Of a DNA stretch of 64,000 bases, positions 10,395 to 62,399 are shown piece by piece (the first letter of the stretch is position 1; every line of letters starts with the position of its first letter). Source of the stretch: Cetorhinus maximus (Eukaryota); the NCBI RefSeq assembly GCF_964194155.1, contig NC_135901.1, forward strand, positions 22,940,001 to 23,004,000. The letters run 5' to 3'. The notes under the pieces were generated by a model. It did not search any database. It saw only the letters and a list, made by a program, of their open reading frames with translations, and was not told the origin of the DNA. Both the position numbers and the translations under genes were made by a program.

Positions 10395-10850
10395 CTACCC
10401 ACACTCAGAGCAGGTGAATGGCCTCTCCCCAATGTGAACTCGCTGGTGATGCTGCAGATTGGAAGACAGACTGAATCCCTTCCCACATTCAGAGCAGGTG
10501 AACGGCCTCTCCTCAGTGTGAATTCGTTGGTGATTCCACAGGTCGGATGACTGGAGAAAACACTTCCCACACTCAGAGCAGGTGAATGGCCTCTCCCCGG
10601 TGTGACCACATTGATGAATCTTCAGTGCAGACGGGGTACAGAATCCTTTCCCACACTCAGAGCAGGCGAATGGCCTCTCCCCGGTGTGACCACGTTGATG
10701 AATCTTCAGTGCAGACAGGGTACAAAATCCTTTTCCACACACAGAGCATGTGAATGGCCTCTCCCCAGTGTGAACACATCGATGGGTTTCCAGTGCAGAC
10801 GGGATCCGGAATCCCTTTCCACAATCCCCACATTTCCACGGTTTCTCCAT
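10395..10850 (-). CDS. C2H2 ZF unit 3 (MEKPWKC start), 5 fingers; 6th broken by TAG
   Basis: ORF 10395-10850; remnant GFTQLSNLQTHQQVH after the stop; acceptor near 11166. Confidence 0.7.
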
Positions 10851-11377
10851 GGTGGGGGTTTCCTTCTTTCTTTCCAGGTTTGACGGTCAGTTGAAGCCTC
10901 ATCCACACACACAACACGTGTACCGTCTCTCCCTGTTATGAATGGTATGATGCACTGGAATACACTCACTCAGGTCTCTCTGTCTCGGTGATTTTCCAGT
11001 CACACTGATGTTTTAAATCTTTTGGAGCAGACAAAACAGACAAACATTTCTTCTTCTAGATTCAAAGGCCGATAATATTCAGGTCCCAATGAATCAGGTG
11101 ACTGTTAGATTCTTACATGACGTTTGGTTTGATAATCTGTCTGCAAATCCGCCCATTCCAATATCCTGAAAAGGAGTTTACAAAGGTCACCATTGTCAGT
11201 ACAGGATAGAAATTTGGACCAGGCAATTCTAGTTCCGATGGATGATTCTTTCCTCTCTTGTTCCTCAAAAGCTGTAAATCTTCATCCCACATACTTTCCC
11301 TCCATTCTCACTCTACTATACCTAATATGCACCCTTCCGATTCTCCTGAAGGTACAAAACATGCTGATCTACTGATC

Positions 11378-13606: not shown

Positions 13607-14196
13607 AACAGAGATGTGTCTAGTGTTGTTATATGTTACATATTAGATATGTCATTTATGGTTCTGTAGTAAAGTTCATTGATTATTATTTCTAGTCTTG
13701 TAATATAGTACTGTAGGTATGTTATATATTTCCAGTCATAGAGTCATTTCAGCACGGACAAAGACAATTCGGTTACTCAAGTCCATGCCAACTCCCTATA
13801 GAGAAATCCAGTCAGTCCCATTCCCCCTCTATATCCTGGTAACACTGCAAGTTTATTTCTTTCAAGTGTCCATCCAATTTAATTTTTAAACCATTGATTA
13901 TCTCCGCTTCCACCACCCTTGTATGGAGTGAGTTCCAGTTCATTTTCAGGGCCCTGTGTCCTGGACAGGAAGCAGTGAGCATGTATCTGTCAATCAGCAT
14001 GAACTGGCACCTTCAGGAGAACTTGGAGAGTGTATATGAGGGACAGCAGAGTGAGATTAGTGGGAAAGTGTGTGTGGTGGAGGTTTACACCTTTTCAGGA
14101 ATGAAAGAAGAAAAAGTGTTCATGTAAACTAGAATTGTCTGTCCTCAGCTTCTATCCTGTAATGACAGTGTTGAATTGTGTAAACTCCTTTTACAG

Positions 14197-15058
14197 GATA
14201 TTGGAAGGAGAGGATCTGAAGTCAGGAATCTCAAAACAAACATCACATTAAGATCTGACAGTCACTCAATTAATCACAATGTGAATATCATTGGCCTTTG
14301 AATTTAGACAGAAATGTTTGTCTGTTCTGTCTCTTCAAAAGGTGTAAACATCAGTGTGACTGGAAAAGCACTGAGACACACACACCCGTGCGAGTGTGTT
14401 CATGTTACGCAGCCTGAAAAAACATCACACCATTCATGGTGAGAAGAGACTGGACACGTATTCTGTGCGAGGACGAGGCTTCAACTGATCATCAAAACTG
14501 GAAGGACAAAAGGCACCAGGGAGAAACCGTGGAAGTGTGGGGACTGTGGGAAGGGATTCAAAGGCCCATCTGAGCTGGAGATTCGTCGACGCAGTCACAC
14601 TGGGGAGAGGCCGTTCACCTACTCCGTGTGTGGGAAGGGATTCATTAAGTTATTCAACCTGCTGATACACCAGAGAGTTCACACTGGGGAGAGCCCATTC
14701 ATCTGCTCCATGTATGGGAAGGGATTTGCGGAGTCATCCAGCTTCCGGAGACACCAACGAGCTCACACTGGGGAGAGGCTGTTCACCTGCTCTGTGTGTG
14801 GGAAGGGATTCAGTGAATCATCCACCCTGCAGAGGCACCAGGCGGTTCACACTGGGGAGAGGTCATTTACCTGCTCTCTGTGTGGGGGAAGGGATTCACT
14901 CAGTCAACCAGTCTGCGGACAGACCGACGTGCTCACACTGGGGAGAGGCCTTTCACCTGCTCCGTGTGTGTGGGAAAGGATTCACTGAGTCATCCAACCT
15001 GCTGAGTTAGCATGGCAGTCACACCAATTAGAGACTTTTTAAATACTCTGACTGTGGG
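14197..15058 (+). pseudogene. C2H2 ZF unit 4; frameshifted, 3' end cut by an LTR element
   Basis: Degenerate fingers, frameshifts near 14885 and 14965, TAG near 15008. Confidence 0.85.
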
Positions 15059-19122: not shown

Positions 19123-21650
19123 GCCATTCTAGGATGACGGGACTGACATATGAGGAGAGATTGAGACAGTTAGGATTATATTCACTGGGGTTCAGAAGAA
19201 TGAGGGGGGATCTCATAGAAACCCATAAAATTCTAACAGGACTAGACCGGGTACATGCGGGAAGGATGTTCCCGATAGTGGGGGGGTCCAAAACCAGGGA
19301 TCACAGTCTGAGGATACGGGGTAGACCATTTAGGACTGAGAAGAGGAGAAATTTCTTCACCCAGAGAGTGGTGAGCCTGTGGAATTCACTACCAAAGAAA
19401 GTAGTTGAGGCCAAAGCATAGTTTTTTCAAGAAGGAGTTGGATATAGCTTCACTTCACATCCGAATTCACTCAAGAGAATGAGGATGAAAGTATCGAACT
19501 CGGAGAGAGAGACTGCAAAGTTCTTGAGCAAATTGATATAAGGAGTGACAAGGTATTGGAGGTGTTGGCAGGCTTAAAAGTGGACAAATCTCAAGGTCTA
19601 GATGATTTGTGTCCAGACTGCTGAGGGAGGCAAGGGAGGAGATCACAGGGGCTCTGACCCAAATTTTTAATTCCTCTCTGGCCACGGGGGAAGTGCCAGA
19701 GGACTGGAGAACAGCTAATGTGGTTCCACTTTTTTAAGAAGGGTTGTGGAGATAAGCCAGGGAACTACAGACCATTGAGTCTCACATCAGTGGTAGGGAA
19801 ACTATTGGAGAAAATTCTGAAGGAGAGAATTTATCTCCACTTGGAGAGGCAATGTTTGATCAGGGATAGTCAGCATCGCTTTGTCAGAGGGAGGTCGTGC
19901 CTAACAAATTTGATTGAATTTTTTGAGGAGGTGACCAGGTGTGTAGATGAGGGCGGTGCAGTTGATGTAGTTTATATGGATTTCAGCAAAGCCTTTGACA
20001 AGGTCCCAGATGGGAGACTTAGAAAAAAGTCAAATGCACATGGGATACGGGGTAATTTGATAAGGTGATTCAAAATTGGCTTAGTTGTAGGAGACAGAGG
20101 GTGATGACAGAAGGTTGCTTTAGTGACTGGAAGCCAGTGTCCAGTGGCACATCACAGGGACCTGTGCTCGGTCCCCTATTATTTGTCATTTATATAAACG
20201 CCATAGATGACTATGTGGGGGGTAGGATTAGTAAGTTTGCGGATGACACAAAGATTGGCCGGGTGGTTAACAGTGAGGTTGAGTGTCTTGGGCTACAGGA
20301 AGATATAGATGGGATGGTCAAATGGGCAGTTAAGTGGCAGATGGAATTTAACCCTGAAAAGTGTGAGGTGATACACTTTGGAAGGACTCATTTGACAAGG
20401 AAATATTCAATGAACGGCATGACACTAGGAAGTTCTGAGGAACAAAGGGACCTTGGCGTGTGTGCCCATAGATCTCTGAAGGTGGAGGGGCATGTTAGTG
20501 GGATGGTGAAAAAGACATATGGAACACTTGCCTTTATCAATCGAGGCATAGATTACAAAAGTAGGGAGATTATGTTGGAGTTGTATAGAACCTTAGTGAG
20601 GCCACAGATGTAGTACTGTGTGCAGTTCTGGTCGCCACATTATAGGAAGGATGTGATTGCACCGGAGGGGGTGCAGAGGAGATTCACCAGGATGTTGCCT
20701 GGGATGAAACATTTGGAACCATAGAACCATAGAAATGTTACAGCACAGGAGGAGGCTATTCAGCCCATCTTGTCCACGCCAGCCCGAGGACACCCAGGTG
20801 CCCTTTCTAATCCTACCTTCCTGCACCTGGCCTATAGCCCTGCAGCTTACAGCACTTAAGGTGCCGATCCCGGTACTTTTTAAAAGAGTTTAAAGTTTCT
20901 GCCTCTACCACCAACTTGGGCAGCGAATTCCAGACACCCACTACCCTCTGCGTAAAAAAGTTCTTCCTCATATCCCCCCTGCACGTTCTGCCACTTATCT
21001 TGAATCTATGTCCCCTGGTTCTAGAATTTTCCATCAAGGGAAACAATTTTATCCTGTAAGTTTATGAAGAGAGGTTGGATAGACTTGGGTTGTTTTCATT
21101 GGAGCAGAGAAGACTGAAGGGCGACCTGATCGATGTGTACAAGATTATTCGGGGCATGGACAGGGTGGATAGGGAGCAGCTATTCCCCTTAGTTGAAGGG
21201 TCAGTCACGAGGGGACATAAGTTCAAAGTGAGGGGCAGGACGTTTAGGGGGGATGTGAGGAAAAACTTTTTTACCCAGAGGGTGGTGACGGTCTGGAATG
21301 CGCTGGCTGGGAGGGTGGTGGAGGCAGGTTGCCTCACATCCTTTAAAAAGTACCTGGATGAGCACTTGGCACATCATAACATTCAAGGCTATGAGCCAAG
21401 TGCTGGTAAGTGGGATTAGGTAGGTAGATCAGGTGTTTCTCACGTGTCGGTGCAGACTCGATGGGTTGAAGGGCCTCTTCTGCACTGTGTGATTCTGTGA
21501 TAGCTCTTGGGGCGAAAGGGATCAAAGGATATGGGAAGAAACTGGGAGCAGGCTATTGAGTTGGATGATCAGCCATGATCATGATGAATGGTGGAGCAGG
21601 CTCGAATGGGCCAAATGGCCTACTCCTGCTCCTATTTTCTATGTTTCCAT
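19123..21650 (+). mobile_element. Three nested CR1s: outer +, middle + (19450-21500, RT), inner - (20715-21057)
   Basis: [27 protein letters not shown]; outer copy resumes after repeated atagct; inner copy is opposite strand with its own tail. Confidence 0.85.
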
Positions 21651-22045: not shown

Positions 22046-23408
22046 TCACTTGTGAACTCGCTGGTGTGCCTGCAGGTTGGATGATGTTCTAAATCTCTTT
22101 GCACAGCAAGAGCAGCTGAAAGGTCTCTCCTCAGTGTGAATGCGTTGGTGAACCATCAGGTCCCGAGAGGTCTTGAAACAACCCCCACAGTCAGAGCATT
22201 TAAAAGGTCTCTCATTGGTGTGGGTGACATGATGTCTCAGCAGGCTGGACGATGTACTGAATCCCTTCCCACACACACAGTACGTGAACGGCCTCTCCCC
22301 TGTATGAACTCGCTGGTGTGTCAGCAGGGTGAATGAGTGAATCCCTTTCCACACGTGGAGCAACTGAATGGCCTCTCCTCGGTGTGAACTTGCTGGTGCC
22401 TCAGCAGGGTGGATGAATCTCTGAATCCATTCCCACACTCGGAGCAGGTGAACGGCCTCTCCTCAGTGTGAATCCATCATTGTGTCAGCAGGGTGGATGA
22501 GTCAGTGAATCCCTTTCCACACACGGAACAGATGAACAGCCTCTCACCATTGTGAACTCGCTGGTGCCTCTGCAGGGAAGATGAATCTCCGAATTCCTTC
22601 CCACACTCAGAGCAGGTGAACAGCCTCTCCCCAGTGTGAATTTGCTGGTGTTTCCGCAGGGTGGAATGATAACTGAATGCCTTCCCACACTCAGAGCAGG
22701 TGAACGGCCTTTCCCCGGTGTGAGCACGTCGGTGTGTCTGCAGGCTGGATAACTGAGTAAAGCCCTTCCCACACTCAGAGCAGGTGAATGGTCTCTCCCC
22801 AGTGTGAACTCACTGGTGTCTCAGGAGGGCAGATGACTGACTGAATCCCTTACCACACATGGAGCAGGTGAATGGTCTCTCCCCAGTGTGAACTCACTCA
22901 TGCTTGCATAAGGTGGATGAATCATTGAATCCTTTCCCACACTCGGAACAGGTGAATGGCCTCTCCCTGCTGTGAATGGGTGAATGAGTTTCCAGCTGAC
23001 ATGGGAATCTGCATCCCTTCCCACAGTCCCCACACTTCCATACTTTCTCCATGGTGCCAATGGCCTTCTTTCTATGCAGGTTCAGCGATCATTTGAAGCC
23101 TTGTCCACACACAGAACAAGTGTACAGTCTCTCCCCACTATGAATGTTGTGATTTTTTTTCTGGCTGTGTAACCAGTTAAAGCTCTTTCCACAGTCAGTG
23201 CACTGGAACTCAGGTGAGTGTATCTTGGTGATTTTCCAGTCAAAGTTATGTTTAAAACCTTTTGAAGCAGACGGAACAGACAAACATTTCTTCTTCTAGA
23301 TTGAAATGCCATTGGTATTCAGGTCCTGAAGAACCAAGTGACTCTGTCAGATCTTGATGTGAAGTTTATTTTGAGATTTGTGTCTTCAAATCCTCACCTT
23401 CTAATATC
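22046..23408 (-). pseudogene. C2H2 ZF unit 5; several stops and a frameshift
   Basis: TGA at 22894-22896 and 22810-22812, stop near 22480, deletion near 22335; acceptor near 23409. Confidence 0.85.
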
Positions 23409-24522
23409 CTGTAAAAGGAGATTATAAAAGTCATCACTTTCAGTCGGGAACAGAAATTCAGAACAGACAATTCTAGTTTCTATGGAACATTCTTTCTTCT
23501 GTCATTCCCCAAGTCTGTAAATTTCTGTTCCCCACAGCAACCGCCCCCCCATCCCGCCCCCGCCCCCACCCCCACCCCCACCCCCACCCCAACCCGCCGG
23601 CTCTCCCTCCATTCTCACTCTGCTATACCTCATATGCATCCTCCTATTTCTCCTAAAGGTATCAATTTATTCTCACTGCTTCCTAGGCTGGACAATGAGA
23701 CCTGAAAATCTTCATGCAGGCTGCTCGCCATATACATATATCTATATTACTGGACAAAAAATGTGTGTAATATACAGTACTATATCATTTGGTTAGAGAT
23801 ATAGTGGGGATGTGAGGAAGAGCTTTTCTTAGGTAGCGAGTTGCCATGACCTGGAATTCACAGTTTAAGAGGGTGATGGAAGCAGAGACGACCAATAATT
23901 TCACAATGAAATTGGATGGACACTTCAAAGAAATAAACTTCCAGGGGAATGCGGATACAGAAGGGGGAATGGGACTGACTGGATTGCTCTACAGAGAGTT
24001 GCCATGGACTCGAGCTGCCAAATGGACACCTTCTGTACAGTAATGACTCCACAACTGTAAATATATAAGGTAGCTTATCATGAAGCTATTAATGTATATA
24101 ATGTTATTGGAATTATTTTAAAAATTGGACTTGTAGTAGGTCTGTGTCTGTGAGTGTGTATGTGTGGCTTAATTGGATTAAAGGTAGATAGTCTGGGTGC
24201 TTTGATCTACAGTAGTTTTGAGGTGGTAATTGGGTGAACAGTAAATTAAAAGACAAAGAGTTTATTTGCATTTGTTGAATAAACCATTCAAAAGAAGGGA
24301 GTAAAATCTTTCACCTAGCTAGAAGACCAAGGAATGTGTCCATATTACTAATAAAATTGGTACTATGAAAGGGGTTTAATTGTTAGAAGAGGTGGAGTTC
24401 AAAGATGTAGTGATACAATGAGAATTTACATTCAAAGGGAAAGCTAGAGGAGTGTGTGTGCAGGTCAGAGGCATGTAACATCTAAAAAGCCTGTAAGCCC
24501 TACAACTGTCTGCAAATAAAAG

Positions 24523-26175
24523 GTGTGGCTATGGGTACCCGCATGGGCCCCAGCTATGCCTGTCTCTTTATGGGGTATGTGGAACATTCCTTGTTCCAGT
24601 CCTACTCCGGCCCCCTCCCACAACTCTTTCTCCGGTACATTGATGATTACTTCGGTGCTGCTTCATGCTCTCGTCGGGACCTGGAAAAATTTATTAATTT
24701 TGCTTCCAATCTCCACCCCTCCATCATTTTCACATGGTCCATCTCTGACACTTCTCTTCCCTTCCTTGACCTCTCTGTCTCAATTTCTGATGATAGACTG
24801 TCGACCAATATCCATTACAAGTCTACCGACTCCCACAGCTACCTCGACTACAGCTCCTCACACCCCGCTTCCTGTAAGGACTCCATCCCATTCTCTCAAT
24901 TCCTTCGCCTCCGTCGCATCTGTTCTGATGACGCTACCTTCAAAAACAGCTCCTCTGACATGTCCTCCTTCTTCCTTAACCGAGGTTTTCCACCCACGGT
25001 CGTTGACAGGGCCCTCAACCGTGTCCGGCCCATATCCCGCGCATCCTCCCTCACGCCTTCTCCTCCTTCCCAGAAACATGATAGGGTCCCCCTTGTCCTC
25101 ACTTATCACCCCACCAGCCTCCGCATTCAAAGGATCATCCTCCGCCATTTCCGCCAACTCCAGCATGATGCCACCACCAAACACATCTTCCCTTCACCCC
25201 CCCTGACAGCATTCCGTAGGGATCGTTCCCTCCGGGACACCCTGGTCCACTCCTCCATCACCCTCTACTCCTCAACCCCCACCTATGGCACCTCCCCATG
25301 CCCACGCAGAAGATGCAACACCTGCCCCTTCACTTCCTCTCTCCTCACCGTCCAAGGGCCCAAACACTCCTTTCAAGTCAAGCAGCATTTCACTTGCATT
25401 TCCCCTAACTTAGTCTACTGCATTCGTTGCTCCCAATGCGGTCTCCTCTACATTGGAGAGACCAAACGCAAACTGGGCGACCGCTTTGCAGAACACCTGC
25501 GGTCTGTCCGCAAGAATGACCCAAACCTCCCTGTTGCTTGCCATTTTATCACTCCACCCTGTTCTCTTGCCCACATGTCTGTCCTTGGCTTGTTCCAGTG
25601 AAGTCCAACGCAAACTGGAGGAACAGCACCTCATCTTCCGACTAGGCACTTTACAGCCTTCCGGGCTGAATATTGAATTCAACAACTTTAGATCTTAAAC
25701 TCCCCCTCTCCCCCCATCCCCACCCCGTTTCTCCCCCCTCCCTTTTTTTTCCAATAATTTATATAGATTCTTCTTTTCCCACCTATTTCCATTATTTTTA
25801 AATCTAAAACTAAAACTTTGTCAATCTTTCCACCCCACCCCCACTAGAGCTGTACCTTGAGTATCCTGTCTTCCGTTCTTAATTAGCACCTTTCTTAGAC
25901 AATATCACCACCTTCAACACCTCTTTGATCCTTTTGTCTGTAACATCTTTTGATTATCTGCTCCTATCACTGCTTGCTTATCTCTACAATCACCACACCC
26001 TCAACTTCTCTCTCCCCCCGCCCCCCCACCTTAAACCAGCTTATATTTCATCTTTCTCCTAACTATGCTTCAGTTCTGCCGAAGGGTCATGAAGACTCGA
26101 AATGTTGACTGATTTCTTCTCCACCGATGCTGCCAGACCTGCTGAGTTTTTCCAGGTAATTCTGTTTTTGTTTTA
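24523..26175 (+). mobile_element. 5'-truncated Penelope-like element (RT C-terminus, GIY-YIG endonuclease, 3' repeat)
   Basis: AMGTRMGPSYA, FLRYIDD, LPFLD, NLVYCIRCSQCGLLYIGETKR; ORF 24525-25601; sits inside an LTR-like sequence (about 24080-26533). Confidence 0.92.
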
Positions 26176-26942
26176 AATTGAAAGGAACCTCATTTTGAAT
26201 TCGTAAGATGATATGTACTTTGCCTTGTGTCTGTTTAAAGTCTATGAGTTGTTCTTGCCTTGGTGAAGATTTACCTGGGAGTGATTAATTTAGGGATTTG
26301 TTTAAAAATTATGGTAGTAATTTGTAGACATGTATATGTGTTTAATTTCTTGTTAAATGAATAAACGTTTAAGTTAGTTTAGATTAAAAAAAACCTTTTA
26401 AGACTGTGGTTTTATTTCTGAATTCAGAGCTGCATCTCAAAACATACCAATTGAAAATATAGGTTTTGACAGTTGTTCAAGTTTCTATCTGGGATTTAAA
26501 CAACTCAGCCTTTACCAACTGCTGTGTCATAACATCGCTGCAGTACTACATTACACGACTAGAATAATAAATATACTTCAGTACAGAAGCATAAATAATA
26601 TATCCAATATGTACAATATTACTAGACATATCTATGTTGTTACGATCCCCTTAAAATAAACAAATTCCCAGACAACCCTCAACGGAATAAATCGAAGGAC
26701 AAGATTAACTTTTAAAACTTATACTGTAACAATCAAACTAAAATCAACAAAAATGAAGCATGCATTAAAAGACAAATATTATTTGAATAGACAGGATAAA
26801 TTTGACTTTAAACAGTTTATACAATAAAAAACAGGCTCCACAAAATCACAAACATTTCCCCCCTCAGCATATTTGGCACTAATTCCAGTTACAGAGTCCC
26901 ACAGCTCTCTGTATTTCCCAGGTGAGGGAAAGAAAGTGTTTA

Positions 26943-27615
26943 ACTCACAGATGTTAGACAGAGGAGGAAGTTTTAGTGTCTGTGTGAAGTTAATAACAAA
27001 CGCTGTGCTGTTTAAAAGCAAACTTTGGAGAAAATGAGGGGAAGATATATAGTAAACTCCCCCCCTCCCCCCAACTCCTTCAGCTGGCAGCCCAGCGCGC
27101 ATGCGCAGAAAGCGCTGCTGACCGTGTTGTCCAGAGCAGGCGCAGTGCTCTCGATCTTCTTTTGGGCCGCCGTAGACAGCAGCCATGGCCGTGGGGATTC
27201 ACCAAGTGGGGTTCGCTCCGCGGCTTCTCGCTCTGGCCGGAGCCGCCAGCTGGTTGCCTGGAAACCTTGGCTCGAGAAGGTGCAGGAGGAGGCGGGGGGG
27301 TGGGGACAATGGGTGGGGGTGGCTCACGTGTCCGCGCGCCTGGCCTGCAGCCTGGAACCCGAGTACGTCACCGCGGAGCATAGCGATTCCTATTGGCTGA
27401 TTCAGGCAATGTTCCATTGTGGACATCACAATGCGGAAGTTGGACAATGAGCTTCAGACTGAAACTTCCTCCTCTGGGCAACATCTGTGAGGAAATCAGT
27501 GTTTCCCCCTTTCTATTTCTTGTCTAATTCTGGGATTAAATTGTTGACTTGCAGGAACTGAAGGAAATTAAATGAATCCAGGGAGGATGCAGACTCTGGA
27601 AAGGTTGCCCCAGGC
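26943..27615. promoter_or_regulatory. Bidirectional CpG promoter and first exons (units 5 and 6)
   Basis: gcgcatgcgc at 27097-27106, attgg, acgtca; donors at 26943-26948 (-) and 27487-27492 (+); acceptor ttgcag near 27554. Confidence 0.7.
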
Positions 27616-27629
27616 CTCTCAATGAAAGG

Positions 27630-27754
27630 TTGAAGAGTCTTACGCACTCGAAACGTTAACTGTGTTCCTCTCCGCAGATGCTGTCAGACCTGCTGAGTTT
27701 TTCCAGGTATTTTTATTTTTGTTTTGGATTTCCAGCATCCGCAGTTTTTTGCTT
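27630..27754 (+). mobile_element. Short Penelope-end remnant with 14-bp TSD
   Basis: TSD ctctcaatgaaagg at 27616-27629 and 27755-27768. Confidence 0.8.
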
Positions 27755-28259
27755 CTCTCAATGAAAGGGGTGGTTTGTCCAGGAGTTGGCTGGTATTTAA
27801 TGAGACAGTACAGTAATATAGACATTGAGTATTGCTGTAAAAAGAGAGATTCTGTCGAAGCTTTTCATTTGCACGCATCAGAATAGATGCGAGAATGTCA
27901 AATTTCAAAGGGAACAATAATTCATATTGTAAAACAGTGAGCTGATTGTTTTGCAAGTGTACTCAGGTTAAGTTGTTGCTTTGGGGTATGCACCAGGGAA
28001 CAATCATGGCTAGCTTTAATTTAAATTCAGAAAATCCGAGTCAAATCTGGTTGGTTGAGAGATCCACTGGGCGAAACGACAAGGAATGGTTGTCCATGTA
28101 GCTTTTGCTTAATTGAAAAGGCACAATGCCTAGACAAATTCATTTTCCCGGCTGACGACCAGGCCCAATAAAAGATTATCAGTTGAGCTCACAATGAGGC
28201 TCACTTACACTTGCTAGAAGCTCCTTTTATCCCTATTTCAAGTCTGGTCCACTGCAGAC

Positions 28260-28862
28260 AAAGGAATTTTTTAGGAAGTCTTACTATAGCTGCACAGAAC
28301 ATTGTTGAGGCCGCACGTTGAGTATTCTGTACAATTTTGGACTCCGTCCTTAAGGAGGGATATAATGGCTTGGAAGCCATTTGTAGTAGGTTCACTAGGC
28401 TGATTCCTGGGATGAAGGATTGTCATCTGAGAAATGCTGAGCAGGTTGAGCCTTAACTCATTGGAGTTTAGAAGAACAAGAGGTGATCTTATTGAAACAA
28501 ATGGCATTCTGAGGGAGCTGGACAGAGTAGGTACTGGGAGAATATTCCCTCTCATGGGGAAATCTAGAACAAGGGGACACAGTTTTAAAAAAGGGGTCTC
28601 CTATTTAAGACGGAGATGAGGAGGAATTTATTCTCTCAGAGGAACATTAGCCTTTGGAATTCTCTTCCACAGAGAGCAGTGGAGGCGGGTCATTAAATAT
28701 ATTCAAGGCCGAGTTAGACAGATTTTTGATCGACAAGGGAGTCAATGGTTATAGTGGACAGGCAGGAAAGTACAGTTAAGGCCACATCAGATCAAACATG
28801 ATCTTATTGAATGGCGGAACAGGCTTGATGGTATGAATGGCCTAGTGCTGTTCCCATTTCTT
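28260..28862 (+). mobile_element. CR1 3' fragment
   Basis: LEFRRTRGDLIET...SRTRGHS; CR1 tail. Confidence 0.8.
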
Positions 28863-29452
28863 ATAATCTCCGTGTCCAGGACAGGAAGCAGTGAACATGA
28901 ATCTGTCGATCAGCTTGAATCGGCACCTTTAGGAAAATTGGGAGGGTGTATAGTTGGTACAGCGGAATGAGGATGTAGGGAAAGTGTGCGGGATGGAGAT
29001 TTAGAGATTTTGGGGAATGAAAGAGGAAAGAATGTTCCATCAAAATTACAATAGCCTGTTCTGAATTTCTCCCCTGTACTGACAGCAATGACTTTTGTAA
29101 ACTCCTTTTACAGGACATTAGAGGGGGAGGATTTGCAAACGGAAATCTCAAACCAAACGTCACGTCAACAGTCACTCGGTTCATCACAATGTGAGTATCA
29201 TCGGCCTTAGAATCTAGGAGAACTGTTTGTTCTGTCTGCTTCAAAAGGTTATAAACATCAGTGTGACTGGAAAAGCATCGAGACACACAGGCCCGAGTGA
29301 GAGTGTTCCAGTGCACTGACTGTGGAGAAAGCTACACATTTTGACAAAAACATGAGACCATTAACAGTGGGGAGAGACTGTACACGTGTTCTGTTTGTAG
29401 AAGTGTTTTTAACTGATTGTTGAAACTGGAGAGACACAAGGACGCCCGCACA

Positions 29453-30463
29453 ATGGAGAAACCGTGGAAGTGTAGGGACTGTGGGAAAGGATTCCGGTCC
29501 CCGTCTGCACTGGAAAATCATCGACGCAGTCACACTGGGGAGAGACCATTCACCTGCTCTGTTTGTGGGAAGGGATTTACTCTCTCAGCCAACCTGCTGA
29601 CACATAAGCGAATTCACACCGGGGAGAGACCATTCATCTGCTCTGTTTGTGGGAAAGGATTCAGTGATTCATCTGCCCTGCAGGCACACCAGCGAATTCA
29701 CACTGGGGAGAGGCCATTCACCTGCTCTGACTGTGGGAAAGGATTCACTCAGTTATCCAGCCTGCTGATACACCAGCGACTTCATACCGGGGAGAGACCT
29801 TTCACCTGCTCTGAGTGTGGGAAGGGATTCAATCAGTCAGCTAACTTGCTGACACACCAACGGGTTCACACAGGGGAGAGGCCGTTCACCTGCTCCGAGT
29901 GCGGGAAGGGATTCACTCATTCATCCGCGTTGCGGAGACACCAGCGAATTCACACCGGGGAGAGACCGTTCACCTGCTCTGACTGTGGGAAGGCATTTAC
30001 TCAGTTATCCAGCCTGGTGACCCACCAGCGAATTCACACTGGGGAGAGACCGTTCACTTGCTCTGACTGTGGGAAGGGATTCATTCATTCATCTGCCCTG
30101 CAGACACATCAACGAGTTCACACCGGGGAGAGACCGTTCACCTGCTCTGAGTGTGGAATGGGATTCACTCAGTTATCCAGCCTGCTGAGACACCAGCGAG
30201 TTCACACCGGGGAGAGGCCATTCACTTGCTCTGACTGTGGGAAAAGATTCAGTGATTCATCCACCCTGCTGATGCACCAGCGAATTCATACTGGGGAGAG
30301 GCCATTCGTCTGCTGTAACTGTGGAAAGAGATTCAGACATTCATCCACCCTGCTGAAGCACCAGCAAGTTCATGCTGAGAAGAGGCCATTCACCTGCTCC
30401 ACTTGTGGGAAGGGATTCACTCAGTTATCCAGCCTGATGAGACACCAGCAAGTTCACAGATGA
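29453..30463 (+). CDS. C2H2 ZF unit 6, 12 intact fingers, no effector domain seen
   Basis: acaATGG start MEKPWKC; uninterrupted array; acceptor at 29112-29113; aataaa near 30726. Confidence 0.88.
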
Positions 30464-30749
30464 TTGCAGGGATTCTACTGTTATTGCTGTTGTTAATCAC
30501 ATCCAGGACTGAACCATGTTCATTCTGACTGTTGATGAAGTGGGAGGGTCAGAGGGTTTCTTTCCGCTGGGCTGGCTGGTCTCACGGCTTTGCTTCCAGT
30601 GAGCTGATGCTCTTTGAGCCTGGGAGTGCACATTCCCACTGAAATGAGCCACAAAGCTGATTAAGTACATTTATTGTATCCTAAATAGTAAATAGTGTTT
30701 TTCCTACCACTGCAGATAGATCACAAATAAATACATTTGTCTCTGTTCC

Positions 30750-31240
30750 ATTGAGTCTACAGCACGGGGCCAGGCCAGTCGGCTCAATTGGTCTTTGTCA
30801 GTATTTATGCTCCACATGAGTCTCCACTTCATCTCCCCCCATCAGCATATCTTTCTATTCCTATATCCCTCGTGTATGTATCCAACCTCTGCTTAAATGT
30901 ATTCATGTTTTTCACCTCAACCACTCGCTGTGGTAGCAAGTTCCACATTCTCACCACTCGCTGGGTGAGGTTTGTCATGAAATCCCTATTGGATTATTGA
31001 ATCCCTTCATAATCTTAAAGACTTCCATCAGGTCATCCTCCAGTCTTCTCTCTTTTTTCTGAAAAGTGTCAGTGAAGAAAATGCTTTTGGTTCTGGTATT
31101 GTTCTTTTTCTAAATGGAGATCACTAATGTTGACAGTACTCCCAGTTAGTCTAACCATGGCTCGAAACAAGTTGAACATAAACTCCCTGCTTTCCAATTC
31201 TATCCCTCTATAATGGAACCCTATATATGGACCACACATT
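30750..31240 (-). mobile_element. Old CR1 tail shared in the 3' flank of ZF units
   Basis: Homologs at 37050-37585, 43885-44400, 48470-49000, 18940-19122 plus 21650-21762. Confidence 0.75.
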
Positions 31241-37814: not shown

Positions 37815-38711
37815 TCAGTTCTGGATGTGATTAACAGCAGCAATAGCAGCAGGATCCAACCTCTGTAAGCATTGGTGAGCTCGCTGGTGTCTCAGCAGGT
37901 GTTGTGACTGTGTGAATCCCTTCCCACACTCGGAGCAAATGAATGGCTTCTCCCCACTGTGAACTCGCTGGTGTGTCACCAGGTTGGATAACCGAGTGAA
38001 TCCCTTCCCACACTGAGAGCAGGGGAACGGCCTCTCCCCAGTGTGAACTCGCTGGTGTGAAAACAGGTTGGATGAATCACTGAATCCCTTCCCACACACA
38101 GAGCAGGTGAACGGTCTCTCCCCAGTGTGAATTCGCTGGTGTGTTTGCAGGCTGGATGACTGAGTAAATCCCTTCCCACACACAAAGCACATGAACGGCC
38201 TCTCCCCAGTGTGAACCCGCTGGTGTGAAAATAGGTTGGATGAATCACTGAATCCCTTCCCACACACAGAGCAGGTGAATGGCCTCTCCGCAGTGTGAAC
38301 TCGCTGATGTGAATGCAGGTTGGATGACTGAGCAAATCCTTTCCCACAAATGGAGCAAGTGAACGGTCTCTCCCCAGTGTGAACTCGCTGGTGTGTCTGC
38401 AGGGTGGATGAATCACTGAAACCCTTCTCACACAAGGAGCAGGTGAACGGCCTCTCCCCAGTGTGAACTCGCTGGTGTATCAGCAGGTGAGATGACTGAG
38501 TGAATCTCTTCCCACACTCAGAGCAGGTGAATGGCCTCTCCCCAGTGTGAACTCGCTGATGTGTTAGCAGTGTGGATAATCGTGTGAATCCCTTCCCACA
38601 CTCGGAGCAGGTGAACGGCCTCTCCACAGTGTGACTACGTCGATGAATTTCCAGCATAGACGGGGAACGGAATCCTTTCCCACAATCCCCACATTTCCAC
38701 GGTTTCTCCAT
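37815..38711 (-). CDS. C2H2 ZF unit 7, 10 intact fingers plus short C-terminal extension
   Basis: accATGG MEKPWKC; intact ORF; acceptor near 38969; AATAAA on minus near 37601-37606. Confidence 0.88.
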
Positions 38712-39242
38712 GGTGCAGGTGTCCTTGTGTTTCTTCAGGTTATTCCACAGTCGTACACTGGAAAATTCTCACTTGGGTGTGTGTGTCTCGATGCTTTTCC
38801 AGTCACACAGATGTTTAAAACATTTTGAAGCTGACAGAGCAGACAAACATTTCTCCTTCTAGATTCAAAGGCTGATGATATTCAGCTCCCATGAATTGAG
38901 TGACTGCCAGATCTTGACATGACTTTTGTGTTGAGATTTCTGTCTGAAAATCCTCCTCTTCTAATATCCTGTAAAAGGAGTTCACACATGTCATTAGTAC
39001 AGAATAAAAATTCAGAACAGACAATTCTAATTTCTATGGAACATTCTTCCCTCCTTTGCTCCAGAATGTGTAAATCTCCATCCCACACACTCTCCCTCCC
39101 TTCTAGCTCTGCTGTACCTAAAATGCATCCTCCCAATTCTCCTGAATGTGGCAATTCATGCTGATTGACAGTTCCACACTCACTGCTTCCTGTCCAGGAC
39201 ATTGAGACATGAAAATCTATCACTGGACTGAAAATGTGTGCA

Positions 39243-49289: not shown

Positions 49290-50324
49290 CACTTGTGAAC
49301 TCGTTGGTGTCTCGGTAGGTGTGGTGAATGAGTGAATCCCTTCCCACACATGGAGCAAGTGAATGACCTTTCCCCGGTGTGAATTCGCGGTGTGCCCGCA
49401 GGTTGGAAGATTGAATAAATTCCTTCCCACACTCAGAGCAGGCAAATGGTTTCTCCCTGGTGTGAACTCGCTGGTGTGCCCGCAGGTTGGAAGACTGAGT
49501 GAATCCCTTCCCACACTCAGAGCAGGTGAACGGCCTCTCCCCGGTGTGAACGCATTGGTGTGTCCAAAGGTTGGATGACGTTGTAAACCTCTATGCACAG
49601 TGAGAACAGCTGAACGGTCTCTCCTCAGTGTGAATACGTTGGTGGACCCTCAGATCTGCCGCACTTTTGAAGCTACTCAAACAGTCAGAGCATTTAAAGG
49701 GTCTCTCATTGGTGTGAGTGATATGGTGTGCCAGCAGGCTGGATGACTGAGTGAATCCCTTCCCACACTCACAGCAGGTGAACGGCCTCTCCCCAGTGTG
49801 AACTCGCTGGTGCTTCTGCAGGGTGGTGACTTAGTGAATCCCTTCCCACATTCAGAGCAGGTGAATGGCCTCTCCCCAGTGTGACTGCGTAGATGAATCT
49901 CCAGCTCTGATGGAGCTTTGCATCCCTTCCCACAGTCTCCACATTTCCATGGTTTCTCCATAGTGCGGGTTGCCTTGTGTCTCTCCAAATTCAACGATGA
50001 GTTGAAGTCTCGTCCCCACACAGATAATGTGACAGACAACAGTCTCTCACTGCTGTGAATGGTGCCATGTTTGTTCAGATTGTATAACTGGTTAAGTCTC
50101 TTTCCACAGTCAGTACACTGGAACACATTCAGTCAGGTGTGTGTGTCTCGGTGCTTTTCCAGTCACACTGATGTTTAAAACCTTTTGAAGCAGACAGAAC
50201 AGACAAACATTTCTCCTTCCAGATTCAAAGGCCAGTGTTTTGCACGTCCCAATTAATCAAGTGACTTTGTGAGGTTACGATGTGATGTTTTGGGATTTCT
50301 GTCTGCAAATCCTCTCCTAAAATA
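49290..50324 (-). pseudogene. C2H2 ZF unit 9; frameshifts and stop
   Basis: MEKPWKC present; frameshift near 49830 and near 49390; TAG near 49592. Confidence 0.85.
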
Positions 50325-52700: not shown

Positions 52701-53351
52701 TCGCACACTCTAGAGGCTGAGTTTCCTCAATTTCTCCTCATAGGAAAATCCCACCCTGCAGGCATTAGTCTGGTGAACCTTTGCTAAACTCTCCCTTGTG
52801 ACAAGTATATTCTTCCTTAGGTAAGGAGACCAAAACTGTATTAAACACTCCAGCTAATGGAGGGAGTGTGTGTGGGGGCAGCTACTTACAGCGCTTGGGG
52901 AGTAAGAAAGGAAATAATGTTCCAGAGAAATTAAGAACAGGCAATTCCAGTTTCTATCCTGGACTGAGGGTGCTGACTTTTATAAAGTCCTTTGAGAGGC
53001 TATTTGAAGAGGAGGATTTACAGAGACGGAAATCGAACCAAACATCAAGTGAAGAATTGGCAGTCACTCAATTATTGCGCGACCTGAACATCATCGGCCT
53101 TTGAATCTTGAAGGAGAAAACTTTGTTTGTTCTGTGTGCTTCAGAAGATTTTAAAATCAGTGTGACTGAGAAACGACACAGACACACACCCGAGTGAGAG
53201 TGTTCCAGTGCACTGACTGTGGCAAGAGCTTTAACCAGTTAAACAGCCTGTAAGAACATCACTATTTACAGCTGGGAGAGACCGTACATGTGCTGTATGC
53301 GGACGCCTCAGCTGATCAACGAACCAGAAGAGAGACTAGGAGGCCCACACC

Positions 53352-54110
53352 ATGGAAAAACCATGGAAGTGTGGGGACTGTGGGAATGGATTCAGATCCC
53401 CATCTCAGCTGGAACTTCATCAACGCAGTCACACTGGAGAGAGACCATTCACCTGCTGTGAGTGTGGGAAGGGGTTCACTCATTCATCCCACCTGCTCAG
53501 ACACCAGCGAATTCACACCAGGGAGAGGCCGTTCACCTGCTCTGAGTGTGGAAAGGCATTCACTACTTCATCCGACCTGCTGACGCACCAGCGAATTCAT
53601 ACCGGGGAGAGGCCATTCACCTGTTCTGATTGTGGGAAGGGATTTAGTCGGTTATCTCACTTACAGGCACACCAGCGCGTTCACACTGGGGAGAAGCCGT
53701 TCACCTGCTCTGATTGTGGAAAGGGATTCTCTCACTCCTCCAACCTGCGGATACACCAGCGAGTTCACACTGGGGAGAGGCCATTCACCTGCTCCGAGTG
53801 TGGTAAGGCATTCATTGATTCGTCAAGCCTGCGGATACACCTACGAGTTCACACCAGGGAGAGACCATTCACCTGCTCTGAGTGTGGGAAGGGATTCAGT
53901 CGATCATCGTTCCTGAAGGCACACCAGCGGATTCACACCGGGGAGTGGCCACCCACCTGCTCTGAGTGTGGGAAAGCATTCATTGATTCATCCAGCCTGC
54001 TGAGACACCAGCATCTTCACACTGGGGAGAGACCGTTCACCTGCTCTGAGTGTGGGAAGAAATTCAGTCAATCAACCTACCTTCGGAAGCACCAGCGAGT
54101 TCACAAGTGA
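53352..54110 (+). CDS. C2H2 ZF unit 10, 9 intact fingers
   Basis: accATGG MEKPWKC; intact ORF; aataaa near 54379. Confidence 0.85.
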
Positions 54111-58348: not shown

Positions 58349-60383
58349 TCAAGCACTTCTTTTCATGAAATAATTTGATAATTGATGACTAAAATTGGAA
58401 CTAATTGTCGTGCCTTCTAAAGCAGGAGGGCCATCGCCCAGCACAGAGGGTAATTTGGGATTTCTCCCATAGACCAATTGATAGGGACTATACCCTCCAA
58501 CCATCTGAAGTGAATTCTTTACATGAATCATCCATGCCAGTGCAGTGGTCAACTTGCAGTTTGGCTGATCAGCTAAGATTTTATACATTTCATTGATCAC
58601 CGTGTGATTCCTTTCACAGAGTCCATTGCTGACAGGACTTTCAGCTGTGATGTTCATGAACATAATGTTCATGTTTTCACACACGTCTCTAAACTCATTA
58701 GCAAATTCCCCTCCATTATCAGTCAGAAACTTAGCTGGTGCCCCAGGTCTAGTCCCTATCCATTTCTCCATGACTTGGTCTATAATCACCCTTTTGTCCT
58801 TGCCATGTATTATGAGAGAATGACTAAATCGAGTTACTATGTCCATAAAGTGTAGAACGAAAATATTTCTGACTTTGTCCCATACCTTTAGATCCATGGC
58901 AACTAACTTGTTCAAGTCACGTGCCAAGGGAAGGATAACAATAGGAAGTGACGGTGTCCGATACTTTTTTACAGATTTCACACCTTGCATTAATCTCTTC
59001 CATGAGCCTCGTATACTCTTCATCAACCACCCTGCAGGAGTTTTAATCTTTGACAAGAAGGGTGAGCAAACTGTCTTTCTAGCTTTAAGACAATTTGCTT
59101 TTCTTCTCGCTGATTCTTATCACTTGATTCCATTAATCCTTCTCAAACACTCTGATTAGAAACAGCAGGTATTGTTAAAGGGATACGATAATGTCCTGAT
59201 TGAGTAAACTGCAGACTCACTGACTTTCCAAAAACAGTTGTCTTATCTTGATTCATGTCCAGTTGCAATTGTGCCTTTTATCTAAGGTTTACTCAACATT
59301 GAGGAGATCTCACGAAAGACTACGCCAGTCCTGATAAAGTGGTAGAATCCAGATATTTTGCATGGAATCACCACTCTTTTTAAAGGCTTCAATGTGTGAC
59401 ATCACCCAAACCTAAACAAGTTGAACCCTCCTTAACCTTGTGTCTATCTTCACCATGAGGTGAATCTGGGTAACATCTTCACCAATCTGATCCACATACT
59501 GTCGAGGTGCAGCCACTATCTAACACAGCACAGTTGAAAGCGTCTGTGAACAATATACTCATCAATGGACCAAAACTCTTTGTGACGAGTACAATTCCTT
59601 CAGAATGATAATTGTCATGATCTTCAGCCTCAGAATTCTCTGTGTCAGGAGTTATTTTGAAGACCCTGATTTTCCACTTTGGGCAGTTTGACTCATAATC
59701 ATATTTTGAGTTAGTCCTGAAACACTTGTTAATTGTTCCCATTCACCTATTAGTGCTGTTCCAATCCAGATCTGTTAAAGGTGCTTTCGCCCTCATTCAA
59801 AACCTGTCAAAGTCTGATTATGCTCACAGGCTTTCTTGTAAATCTCATCAATGAACCCGAATAGAAGATCCAAACCTTCATCAATATCCAACTGACAGGT
59901 ATCCAGCTCACAAAATTCTTCTGTTCTGATTTTACTTTTGTTAGGAAGTGACAGTGCCAAGGCCAGACCTTGTTCCCTCCTTGGTTGGGACGTAACCCGT
60001 GTCCACATATCCACTTCATTCATCCACTGGTCGTATGGCTCAGACTCCAAGAACAGAGGCTGGGTATCAGACCCTGACAATTGCTTTCAGTCATATCTCA
60101 CAAAAATTACTAGGGTTGGAAGCTTTTGTCCAAAATTTTATTTCCGTTTAGTTTCCATCCTTCGCCATTAGGCAAGCAATCTGTTACCATGACAGCCTTA
60201 TGGTGAAGAAAGAAACTGGAGCCAATCTTTACTTGGTATAGGCTTATTCACAGAGTGAAACTTTAGTTAGATAACTCCTGACTCCACTCCATGCCAGTAA
60301 GTTTCTCTTTATCTGTGCTTGAGTAACCATCCAATCAATTCCCTTCACCTATGTATATGTAACCACAGCTGATACAATTAACA
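58349..60383 (-). mobile_element. Copia (GalEa-like) LTR retrotransposon: LTR 60190-60383, PBS, gag, protease, integrase; RT not seen
   Basis: PBS-like TGGTAACAGA right after LTR CA; gag QGLALALSLP; protease AVLDSGCTSTVCG; integrase VAMDL/TDNGGEF/SNGLCERNH directly after protease. Confidence 0.8.
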
Positions 60384-60466: not shown

Positions 60467-61294
60467 TCACACACTCAGAGCAGGTGAACGGTCTCTCTCC
60501 TCTGTGTGAAGTCGGCGGTGCTTCCGCAGGCTGGATGTATCAGCAAATTCCTTCTCACACTCAGAACAGGTGAAAGGCCTCTCCCCAGTGTGAACTCGCT
60601 GGTGTCTCAGCAGGTTGGATGATTCAGTGAATCCTTTCCCACACAGAGAGCAAGAGAACGGCCTCTCCCCGGTGTGAACTCGCCGGTGCTTCCATAGGCT
60701 GGATGAATTTGGGAATCCCTTCCCACACTCAGAGCAGGAGAATGGCCTCTCTCCAGTATGAACACGTCGGTGTGCCTGTAGGCTGGTTGACCGAGTGAAT
60801 CCCTTCCCACACACGGAGCAAGTGAATGGTCTCTCTCCGGTGTGCGCTATCTGGTGCCGCAGAAGGTTGGTTAACCGAGTGAATCCCTTCTCACACACGG
60901 GGCAAGTGAATGGCCTCTCCCCAGTGTGAACAACACTGTGGTTCTGCAGGGTGGATGACTCACTGAATCCCTTCCCACAGACAGAGCAGATGAACGGCCT
61001 CTCCCCAGTGTGAACGCGCTGGTGCAACCGCAGGTGTGATGACTGAGTGAATCCCTTGCCACAAACGGAGCAGGTGAACGGCCTCTCCCCGGTGTGAACT
61101 CGCTTGTGTGTAACCAGATGCGATGAGTGATTGAATCCCTTGCCACACTGAGAGCAGGTAAATGGCCTCTCCCCCGTGTGAATGCGTCGATGAATTTCAA
61201 GTGCAGATGGGGAACGGAATCCCTTCCCACAGTCCCCACATTTCCACGGTTTCTCTATAGTGCAGGTGCCCTTGTGTCTCTGCATGTTCACCAA
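60467..61294 (-). CDS. C2H2 ZF unit 11, 9 intact fingers then frameshift; usual ATG is ATA
   Basis: TIEKPWKC; upstream in-frame ATG (MQRH); LTR insertion at 60383; duplicated fossil leader 61300-61800; acceptor near 61890. Confidence 0.6.
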
Positions 61295-62399
61295 TCAGCT
61301 GAAGCCTCATCTGTACACAAAATACGTGAACGGCCTCTCTCCGCTGTGAATGGTGCAATGTTTTTTCAGGCTGTGTAACTGGTTAGAGCTCTCTCCACAG
61401 TCAGTCCACTGAAACACTCGCACTCAGGGGTGCGTGTCTCTGTGCTTTTCCATTTACATTGATGTTTAAAAATGCCAGAAAGAGACAGAGCGTCGATGAG
61501 TTTCTAGCTTTGATGGGGAAATCAATCCCTTCCCACAGTCCCCACATATCCAAGGTTTCTCAGAGGACCTGATGTGTTTGTGTCTCTCCAGGCTGGACAA
61601 TCATTTGAAGCCTTGTTTATAAGCAGAACACATGAACGATTTTTCCCTGCTGTGAATGGTGTGATTTTTATTCAGTCTGTGTAACTGATTAAAACTCTTT
61701 CCACAGTCAGTGCACTGGAACACTCTCATTCGGGTGTGTGAATGTCTTGGTGCTTTATCAGTCACACTGATGTTTGAAATCTTTTTCCACAGACAGAATA
61801 GACAAACGTTTACCCTTCCTCATTCAAAGGCCAGTGATATTCAGGTTCTGCTGAATCAAGTAACAGTGAGATCCTCCCCTTCTAACCTCCTGTAAAATGA
61901 GTTTACAGAAGTTATCACTGTAAATACGGGATATTTTCTTTTATTCATTCATGGGGTGTGGGCTTCGCTGGCTGGGCCAGCATTTATTGCCCATCCCTAG
62001 TTGCTCTTGAGAAGGTGGTGGTGAGCTGCCTTCTTCAACCGCTGCAGTCCATGTAGTATTAAATATATAAATTCACAACAGAGAATTCTAGTTTCTATGG
62101 AACATTTTTTCCTCTCATTTCCCCAAATCTATAAATCTCTGACCCACACACTCCTTTCCCTCTCTGCTCATTGTCCCAGATTCAGTGTCCAGTCTCCTAC
62201 TTATTCTTTTCTCCTCTCCAGATTCTCTCTCCTCCTGTCCTTAAACTGATGACTCAGGCTGTGGATCAATTTCACTCCTTCACTCTAATTCTACCAAATA
62301 CTTTGCCTCAAAACAACAAATTACCTTTATTGACTTTATCAGTGTTGTTAAATGAACGGAAATAACCACCTTTTCCCAATTGGGCCTCTGGTTCAGTTT

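What the first reader, a model, noticed from the sequence alone, without database searches (positions are those of the whole stretch)
29114..29460. Fossil zinc-finger leader with shared stops, and a start codon apparently born from a TGEKP linker
Seen: between the acceptor and the ATG, MEKP-type units carry up to three dead fingers (MFVCSVC.KRF*TSV*LEKHRDTH; FQCTDCG...; GFN*..NLERH). The SV*L TGA recurs at 14357, 29264, 53163 and on minus near 11000, 38803, 50163 and 61763. A second TGA about 13 codons before the ATG recurs at 14486, 29414, 53313 and on minus near 10888, 23095 and 61295; unit 9 has TCA there. The start ACC/ACA ATG GAG AAA CC sits where a linker ACT GGG GAG AAA CC would be and has a strong Kozak context. 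Inference: an ancestral N-terminus died once, became 5' UTR with uORFs, and was amplified; it may now control translation.
Basis: partly seen in the sequence, partly recalled or inferred. Interest (0 to 1): 0.7.

Follow-up and report, generated by a model that had tools for sequence, protein, structure and literature searches.

The report
Fossil fingers ahead of shark ZNFs
A large family of shark-type zinc-finger genes carries three broken fingers ahead of a start codon that sits where a finger-to-finger linker glycine stands in sister genes; the broken part drifts at close to the intron rate, so it is likely an inherited fossil rather than a preserved translation switch, with only one of its stop codons possibly under weak selection.

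Summary
203 of 240 first-finger sites sampled on one contig carry three dead fingers; the start ATG stands where sister (type A) genes have the linker Gly codon (GGG in 8 of 14). The stops are inherited, but likely arose stepwise rather than in one event. The proposed control function is mostly not supported. The leader changes at 0.75-1.03 times the intron rate, depending on the test, and shows no clear codon constraint (dN/dS 0.91 [0.81-1.02] against 0.52-0.62 in live fingers). 109 of 151 leaders are frameshifted. The upstream ATG and first TGA are unconstrained, and new uATGs are not depleted. The strong Kozak context comes free from the old Thr and Glu codons. One residue remains: the second TGA is kept in 178 of 192 copies (10 losses, 27 expected), but two out-of-frame TGAs are nearly as stable and broken genes keep it as well as intact ones. 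A 50-nt exon-like block upstream is far more constrained (0.3-0.5 times). No RNA or ribosome data tested translation. This scan noted the same leader before, in this and other shark genomes, with the same verdict.

The parts
27421..27486 (+). Tail of putative non-coding exon 1, downstream of a GC-rich CCAAT-box region; start site unknown; donor-like GT at 27487
   Evidence: exon status inferred from splice signals
27487..27554 (+). Putative pyrimidine-rich mini-intron (73 nt in the family majority), constrained
   Evidence: O/E 0.63 on tree; 0.58-0.70 in sister pairs
27555..27603 (+). Putative purine-rich micro-exon (49 nt here, 50 in the family); the most constrained non-coding piece found
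   Evidence: O/E 0.49 on tree; 0.29-0.38 in sister pairs
27604..29113 (+). Putative intron 2 with repeat insertions; ends in a conserved branch-point-like motif and AG acceptor
   Evidence: acceptor triplet O/E 0.44
29114..29452 (+). Fossil leader: linker-like stretch shared with type A genes, then three dead C2H2 fingers
   Evidence: PF00096 matches on X-read-through paralogues
29252..29254 (+). Shared TAA in dead finger 1; CAA in many copies, likely the youngest stop
29264..29266 (+). First shared TGA (dead finger 1); unconstrained; TGG in some early-branching copies
   Evidence: stop in 143 of 186 rows; O/E 1.10
29297..29328 (+). 32-nt mildly conserved patch at the start of dead finger 2; cause unknown, weak in the replication set
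   Evidence: O/E 0.71, 2 of 2000 shuffles as low; 0.88 in the 43 new-region rows
29352..29423 (+). Out-of-frame 23-codon uORF in this copy; not the family's shared uORF (a start-stop ATG also lies at 29189)
29414..29416 (+). Second shared TGA, 13 codons before the start; candidate weak constraint
   Evidence: stop in 178 of 192 rows; 10 losses against 27.2 expected; rank 9 of 529 triplets
29453..29455 (+). Start ATG at the position of the linker Gly codon of type A genes; constrained
   Evidence: ATG in 144 of 160 and 39 of 42 copies; O/E 0.43
29453..30463 (+). 336-aa bare C2H2 array (12 PF00096 stretches); no effector family among the 25 best of 49 Pfam hits shown
14157..14520 (+). Paralogous leader (start codon changed to AGG); start coordinate approximate
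52990..53354 (+). Paralogous leader with ATG; start coordinate approximate
10848..11210 (-). Paralogous leader with ATG; extent approximate
23050..23410 (-). Paralogous leader with ATG; head-to-head neighbour of the focal unit; extent approximate
38709..38960 (-). Paralogous leader with ATG and an internal deletion that removes the second TGA; extent approximate
49959..50320 (-). Paralogous leader with ATG; TCA in place of the second TGA; extent approximate
61256..61900 (-). Tandem partial double leader; starts changed to ATA and TCT; extent approximate

Best explanation
The stretch is the decayed front end of an older, longer zinc-finger protein: three fingers broken by inherited stops and frameshifts, which likely lie untranslated in the 5' UTR while the protein is predicted to start at an ATG standing at the Gly codon of the old finger linker. 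Likely history: (1) a gene started at an earlier ATG, still used in type A genes and retained in at least one type B copy. (2) In the type B founder the Gly codon before the 'EKPWKC' finger became ATG; the flanking Thr and Glu codons supplied -3A and +4G at no cost. (3) The fingers ahead of it lost their frame, probably stepwise (second TGA, then first TGA, then TAA). (4) The whole unit was amplified hundreds of times. Ribosomes would reach the main ATG by leaky scanning or reinitiation past uATGs that come and go by mutation. The leader may dampen output as a side effect, but its stops, frame and uATGs are not a maintained device. Shown: homology, positions, rates, frameshifts. Inferred: UTR status, order of events, initiation route.
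For: Type A fingers homologous to dead finger 3 are open: CAA 6, CGA 4, other 4 of 14 at the second-TGA place, and GGG 8, AGG 3, other 3 of 14 at the ATG place. L218 keeps ATG at the type A start. The leader is frameshifted in 109 of 151 copies, near the two thirds expected at random, and 0 of 164 leaders are open from acceptor to ATG. dN/dS in the finger frame is 0.91 [0.81-1.02] against 0.52 [0.37-0.71] and 0.62 [0.42-0.87] in the first two live fingers; nonsense changes O/E 0.80 against 0.30 and 0.24. Distinct indels per 100 nt are 71-95 in the leader, 95 in the intron and 19 in the CDS. Context-corrected O/E is 1.01-1.03 for the leader and 0.98-1.11 for the adjacent intron on trees of 196 rows. 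The MFVC uATG has the second-highest loss rate of the exonic-plus-main comparison (0.13 per branch against 0.039 for the main ATG) and O/E 1.25. New-ATG creation O/E is 0.91 in the leader and 0.95 in the intron, with no depletion in strong context. The method detects constraint where expected: main ATG 0.43, acceptor 0.44, micro-exon 0.49.
Against: Sister-pair tests give a leader slower than mid-intron: raw ratio 0.86 [0.75-0.97], leader lower in 38 of 53 pairs, one pair being a self-overlap artefact. Context-corrected values are 0.92 and 0.97 against a far-intron baseline that includes the conserved micro-exon, and 0.81 [0.71-0.92], 0.81, 0.91 [0.78-1.05] and 0.75 [0.64-0.87] against mid-intron. 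In family L001-L017 non-CpG changes per column are 0.091 in the leader and 0.151 in the intron. Mild constraint or gene conversion of up to about 25% is therefore not excluded. The second TGA has O/E 0.52, similar to the ATG and acceptor, and the 32-nt patch is a significant low. UTR status and translation were not observed.
Confidence: 0.74

Rival explanations
1. Guard stop: most of the leader drifts, but the second TGA is selected. It would end any in-frame upstream initiation 36 nt before the start, preventing a half-finger N-terminal extension or setting a reinitiation gap.
For: Stop kept in 145 of 156 old and 39 of 43 new copies, against 118 of 150 and 29 of 40 for the first TGA (Fisher P 0.045 in the new set). 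10 stop-losing changes against 27.2 expected, while stop-keeping changes are 8 against 7.2. Flanking bases evolve at normal rates. All 19 copies with an in-frame upstream ATG reaching it keep the stop, against 126 of 134 without one (too few to test).
Against: Out-of-frame TGAs in the same preceding-C context are nearly as stable (8 against 21.0 at -110; 12 against 25.0 at -145), and per-branch loss is lower at -110. It ranks 9 of 529 triplets. Intact and broken genes keep it equally (76 of 81 against 102 of 111, P 0.78). Site counts are overdispersed 1.4-1.5 fold. Genome-wide, 15 of 99 exact-flank matches lack the stop, including lineages of 7 and 4 copies.
Confidence: 0.17
2. Conserved uORF control: the MFVC uORF and both TGAs form a maintained translational switch.
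For: 163 of 164 leaders hold at least one uATG, so some dampening is plausible. Translating tandem C2H2 fingers stalls ribosomes and triggers decay in zebrafish (PMC11620358; abstract and section 12 read), which could give such a switch a purpose.
Against: The uATG is kept in only 94 of 148 and 20 of 37 copies and is absent from the focal unit. First TGA O/E is 1.10 and uATG O/E 1.25. uORF number, frame and context vary freely.
Confidence: 0.04
3. Recoding: the TGAs are read through, edited or decoded as selenocysteine, so the fingers are translated.
For: The family majority sequence keeps one frame from acceptor to ATG. Some copies have TGG at the first TGA, and a catshark gene model shows Trp there (P0121).
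Against: 109 of 151 leaders are frameshifted. Zinc-ligand Cys and His decay in the leader (for example 53 of 78 and 56 of 83 kept, against 75-82 of 78-83 in the CDS). A TAA is also shared. There is no SECIS or other Rfam match at gathering level in 27300-30800.
Confidence: 0.02
4. A nucleotide-level element (RNA stem or DNA-binding site) hides in dead finger 2.
For: 32-nt patch with O/E 0.71 (0.54 on internal branches), synonymous and non-synonymous changes equally reduced. It contains a 10-bp palindrome, and RNAalifold proposes a 10-bp stem nearby.
Against: O/E is only 0.88 in the 43 new-region rows and indel density is normal. No stem shows fewer pair-breaking than pair-keeping changes, and compensatory changes (0-5) are within random controls (3-5). 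Folding z-scores over the fingers are near 0.
Confidence: 0.1

Closest known systems
Lineage-specific tandem C2H2 zinc-finger gene expansions (tetrapod KRAB-ZNFs, cyprinid FiNZ-ZNFs; PMC10547256 and PMC11603059, passages read)
   Same: Clustered, heavily duplicated genes with HTGE-linked PF00096 arrays in one large last exon; many broken copies.
   Different: No KRAB or other effector among the Pfam hits shown; the protein is predicted to be a bare array that starts inside a former linker, with dead fingers ahead of it. PMC10547256 has 0 occurrences of shark, cartilaginous or chondrichth.
Degenerate fingers stranded in UTRs of mammalian KRAB-ZNF genes, e.g. eleven fingers in the ZNF252 3' UTR (PMC2865497, passages read)
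   Same: Finger-coding DNA left in untranslated mRNA after an in-frame stop.
   Different: There the fossil lies 3' of the ORF of one gene; here it lies 5' of a new start and is shared by hundreds of paralogues.
RefSeq/UniRef shark 'zinc finger protein ...-like' models beginning MEKPWKC (Pristiophorus P0003, Mustelus P0083)
   Same: Same start and first finger, so the linker-position start is shared with other sharks.
   Different: Automatic names only; the leader is not part of these models. A Scyliorhinus model (P0121) runs through the same leader with a frameshift.

Membership tests
Tandem Kruppel-type C2H2 ZNF gene | Array of PF00096 fingers joined by HTGE-type linkers | tested here: met
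   12 PF00096 stretches, E 2e-83
Tandem Kruppel-type C2H2 ZNF gene | Purifying selection on the finger frame | tested here: met
   dN/dS 0.52 and 0.62; nonsense O/E 0.24-0.30
KRAB-ZNF / FiNZ-ZNF | N-terminal effector domain in frame with the fingers | tested here: not met
   No effector among the Pfam hits shown for the ORF or two read-through leaders; 0 of 164 leaders open from the acceptor. No FiNZ profile was searched specifically.
KRAB-ZNF / FiNZ-ZNF | Binding and repression of transposons | not testable with these tools
   Needs ChIP or perturbation
Conserved regulatory uORF leader | uATG conserved across homologues | tested here: not met
   94 of 148 and 20 of 37; O/E 1.25
Conserved regulatory uORF leader | Conserved stop position relative to the main start | tested here: inconclusive
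   Second TGA 178 of 192, but context-matched controls are similar; first TGA not conserved
Conserved regulatory uORF leader | Ribosome occupancy and effect on main-ORF output | not testable with these tools
   No ribosome profiling or reporter data
Stop-codon recoding (readthrough, Sec, A-to-I editing) | Frame and residues conserved across the stop | tested here: not met
Stop-codon recoding (readthrough, Sec, A-to-I editing) | SECIS or conserved stem | tested here: not met
   Rfam scan; covariation tests
5' UTR exon | Retained in spliced mRNA behind the acceptor at 29113 | tested here: inconclusive
   Acceptor and branch-like motif conserved; no run on record as RNA and no informative splice joint

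The most novel reading that the evidence does not exclude
A shark-wide family of effector-less zinc-finger genes re-started inside a finger linker, and selection has since co-opted one codon of the fossil, the in-frame TGA 36 nt before the start, as a guard or reinitiation spacer. Together with a strongly constrained 50-nt upstream micro-exon, it would set the dose of hundreds of paralogues.
Probability: 0.17. Interest if true: 0.55.

Novelty: new variant of a known kind. Interest (0 to 1): 0.3.

Why it matters
It documents a simple route by which a finger array sheds its N-terminus: a Thr-Gly-Glu linker already carries a strong Kozak frame, so changing the Gly codon to ATG yields a ready start. 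It gives the likely true start for hundreds of shark genes that automatic models fuse or extend. It also offers about 200 parallel copies of a decaying exon as a yardstick for selection in 5' UTRs. As a regulatory discovery it is weak. If the second TGA proved selected, it would be a clean case of a nonsense mutation co-opted for translational control.

Tried and rejected
RNA evidence: no RNA holder listed (all 'RNA' labels are guesses). Contigs of X1, X2, X7, X20 and X1, X2, X8, X16 are mixtures of paralogues. Summed depth rises across the acceptor in the guessed-RNA runs and not in the large run X16, but contig depth cannot rank parts of a gene, so I do not count it. None of the 15 joints shown inside the leader had GT..AG ends (18 more not shown). 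A loose end in X8 at 29117 found no match upstream of the 240 units. No processed copy with the micro-exon/leader junction was found in G000 (absence not shown). An intact leader fused to the array was not found: one search gave 1 hit among 9 candidates (the frameshifted P0121) and one search gave no candidate; both were length-limited. The HMMER search was swamped by generic multi-finger proteins; 8 of its 150 listed proteins held family motifs, mostly fused models that enter after the second-TGA position, one with Trp and one with Arg there. The first strong signal for the second TGA (1 loss against about 13.5 in 83 rows) shrank with more rows and context-matched controls. A branch-point reading of the second TGA was dropped because no conserved AG follows it. 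RNA stems were rejected. The phage search gave no match and was not informative. Rows dropped: 37 of 240 sites were not type B; 3 internal repeats and 4 near-identical rows were removed to give 196; searches used 83 of 160 full-cover rows. Six regions were chosen because they held good matches to the window leader, which may bias conservation upward. The exon-1 ATG test failed (motif not in the majority sequence), so its 'exon1' row there is not valid. Literature searches listed no paper describing this leader; only listings were seen for most, the library lacks many subscription papers, and no supplements were opened. bioRxiv 10.64898/2026.05.12.723742 (passages) was not relevant.

Full report
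Setting. The window lies on a 65-Mb contig (C24) of a 4-Gb genome. Its closest named protein matches are shark zinc-finger models (Heterodontus and Scyliorhinus at 80% identity over the first 60 residues). The leader query gave 3590 first-look candidates, 40 scored, and exact-flank patterns match from 0.4 to 64 Mb of C24 and on small contigs (99 and 439 matches). I sampled 1.46 Mb (190 first-finger sites) and then 0.4 Mb as a replication set (50 sites). Sites were picked by the first live finger, without using the ATG or the stops.

Observation. All TGA coordinates check out within a few bases. Six of nine type B sites in the window have ATG. The focal copy lacks the MFVC ATG and carries its own start-stop ATG at 29189 and a 23-codon out-of-frame uORF at 29352-29423.

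Two subfamilies. 203 of 240 sites are type B: acceptor, linker-like stretch, three dead fingers, ATG. Most of the rest are type A, which share the acceptor and linker-like stretch and start at an earlier ATG; many then have a live finger homologous to dead finger 3. In 14 such type A genes the second-TGA place holds sense codons (CAA 6, CGA 4, others 4) and the ATG place holds GGG 8, AGG 3, others 3. As Thr-Gly-Glu is the canonical linker (established knowledge), type B is the derived state. The -3A and +4G come from the Thr and Glu codons, so the Kozak context is not independent evidence of selection. One type B copy keeps the older ATG (L218), and distal copies have GTG and a canonical first finger with CAA. 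Copies on C22, L220 and L221 have CAA and TGG in finger 1 yet carry the second TGA, and fall near the base of type B with weak support. Stepwise death is therefore likely but not proven. Two basal copies have ACG at the start position, so a CpG route to ATG is possible. MEKPWKC starts occur in Pristiophorus and Mustelus models, which by recalled classification lie on the two main shark branches. A Scyliorhinus model contains the same leader with a frameshift and Trp at the first TGA; its other frame implies TGG at the second as well (inferred from the protein). Mean leader identity to the family majority is 0.88, compatible with long drift given a shark mutation rate of 7e-10 per base per generation (PMC10587355, passages).

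Is the leader coding? No. 109 of 151 leaders are frameshifted and 0 of 164 are open. dN/dS is 0.91 [0.81-1.02] against 0.52 and 0.62 in live fingers. Indels are as dense as in the intron and four to five times denser than in the CDS. Zinc ligands decay. No SECIS-like match was found.

Is it constrained as sequence? Little. On trees of 196 rows with a trinucleotide model the leader has O/E 1.01-1.03 and the adjacent intron 0.98-1.11. Sister pairs give 0.86 raw, 0.92-0.97 against far intron and 0.75-0.91 against mid-intron. The lower values come from pairs chosen on flanking similarity, which favours gene conversion, and from a repeat-rich baseline, but mild constraint is not excluded. The same tests give 0.29-0.49 for an upstream 50-nt exon-like block and 0.58-0.70 for its mini-intron, so they have power.

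uORFs. 163 of 164 leaders have a uATG, but number, frame and context vary. The shared MFVC ATG is lost at 0.13 per branch against 0.039 for the main ATG. ATG creation is not depleted relative to the intron in any frame or context class. Some repression by these uATGs is plausible from general scanning rules, but it is not a conserved design.

The stops. The first TGA (O/E 1.10) and the TAA (18 losses against 19.0) are neutral. The second TGA is kept in 178 of 192 rows, with 10 losses against 27.2 and normal TGA-to-TAA change, and replicates modestly (39 of 43 against 29 of 40). Against selection: two out-of-frame TGAs in the same context behave alike, it ranks 9 of 529 triplets, broken genes keep it as often as intact ones, and whole lineages have lost it. 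I give the guard-stop reading about 0.17.

Patch and structure. A 32-nt patch in dead finger 2 is a significant low but weak in the replication set.

Known systems. The genes work like lineage-specific tandem C2H2 expansions (PMC10547256, PMC11603059; passages) but fail KRAB/FiNZ membership for lack of an in-frame effector. Fingers stranded in UTRs are known from mammalian ZNF252, on the 3' side (PMC2865497, passages). My searches listed no paper on this 5' fossil or the linker-position start. Earlier notes of this scan describe it in this and other shark genomes; they are unchecked AI notes and not independent support.

Verdict. A real, inherited fossil with a neat origin for the start codon and little sign of present function. 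New variant of a known kind; interest 0.3.

Noticed in passing
window 27487-27660 (+); family-wide: A putative mini-intron, 50-nt purine-rich micro-exon and the first bases of the next intron are two to three times more constrained than the leader or mid-intron, with no third-position pattern in the per-site counts. Present within 6 kb upstream of 145 of 196 type B units and 5 of 37 others. Could be splicing enhancers or promoter-proximal factor sites. Its first frame is continuous with the leader's frame, so it may be part of the old coding front end.
   Followed up: partly
window 26900-27460: Head-to-head type B pair (ATGs at 23052 minus and 29453 plus) appears to share a GC-rich CCAAT-box region; the core occurs in both orientations among paralogues, suggesting bidirectional promoters.
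   Followed up: partly
G000:C24, 0.4-64 Mb: The family spans nearly the whole 65-Mb contig, about one unit per 8 kb in the sampled stretches, with near-identical copies recurring at 0.4-26 Mb and a more diverse zone at 26.5-31.3 Mb.
   Followed up: partly
L211-L212 (G000:C22:29.11-29.13 Mb): An outlying type A plus type B pair on another contig; the B copy has an open first finger, the second TGA and ACG instead of ATG.
   Followed up: partly
G000:C24 near 24825234 (+), within L158: Copy with a type A start but a type B-like finger end and ACG at the start position; intermediate or recombinant.
   Followed up: partly
first 170 nt of the CDS, family-wide: Helix positions of the live fingers vary faster than the intron baseline (sliding O/E up to 1.36), as expected for diversifying DNA-contact residues; many type B ORFs are short or broken.
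   Followed up: no
P0123, P0127, P0129, P0169: Database gene models fuse several neighbouring units into one long protein by splicing around the leader stops; likely annotation artefacts.
   Followed up: no
window 24486-25698, 56042-57000, 58349-59116, 19658-20613: Decayed retroelement ORFs (reverse-transcriptase-like and integrase-like by eye; labels recalled, not searched) lie between the units.
   Followed up: no
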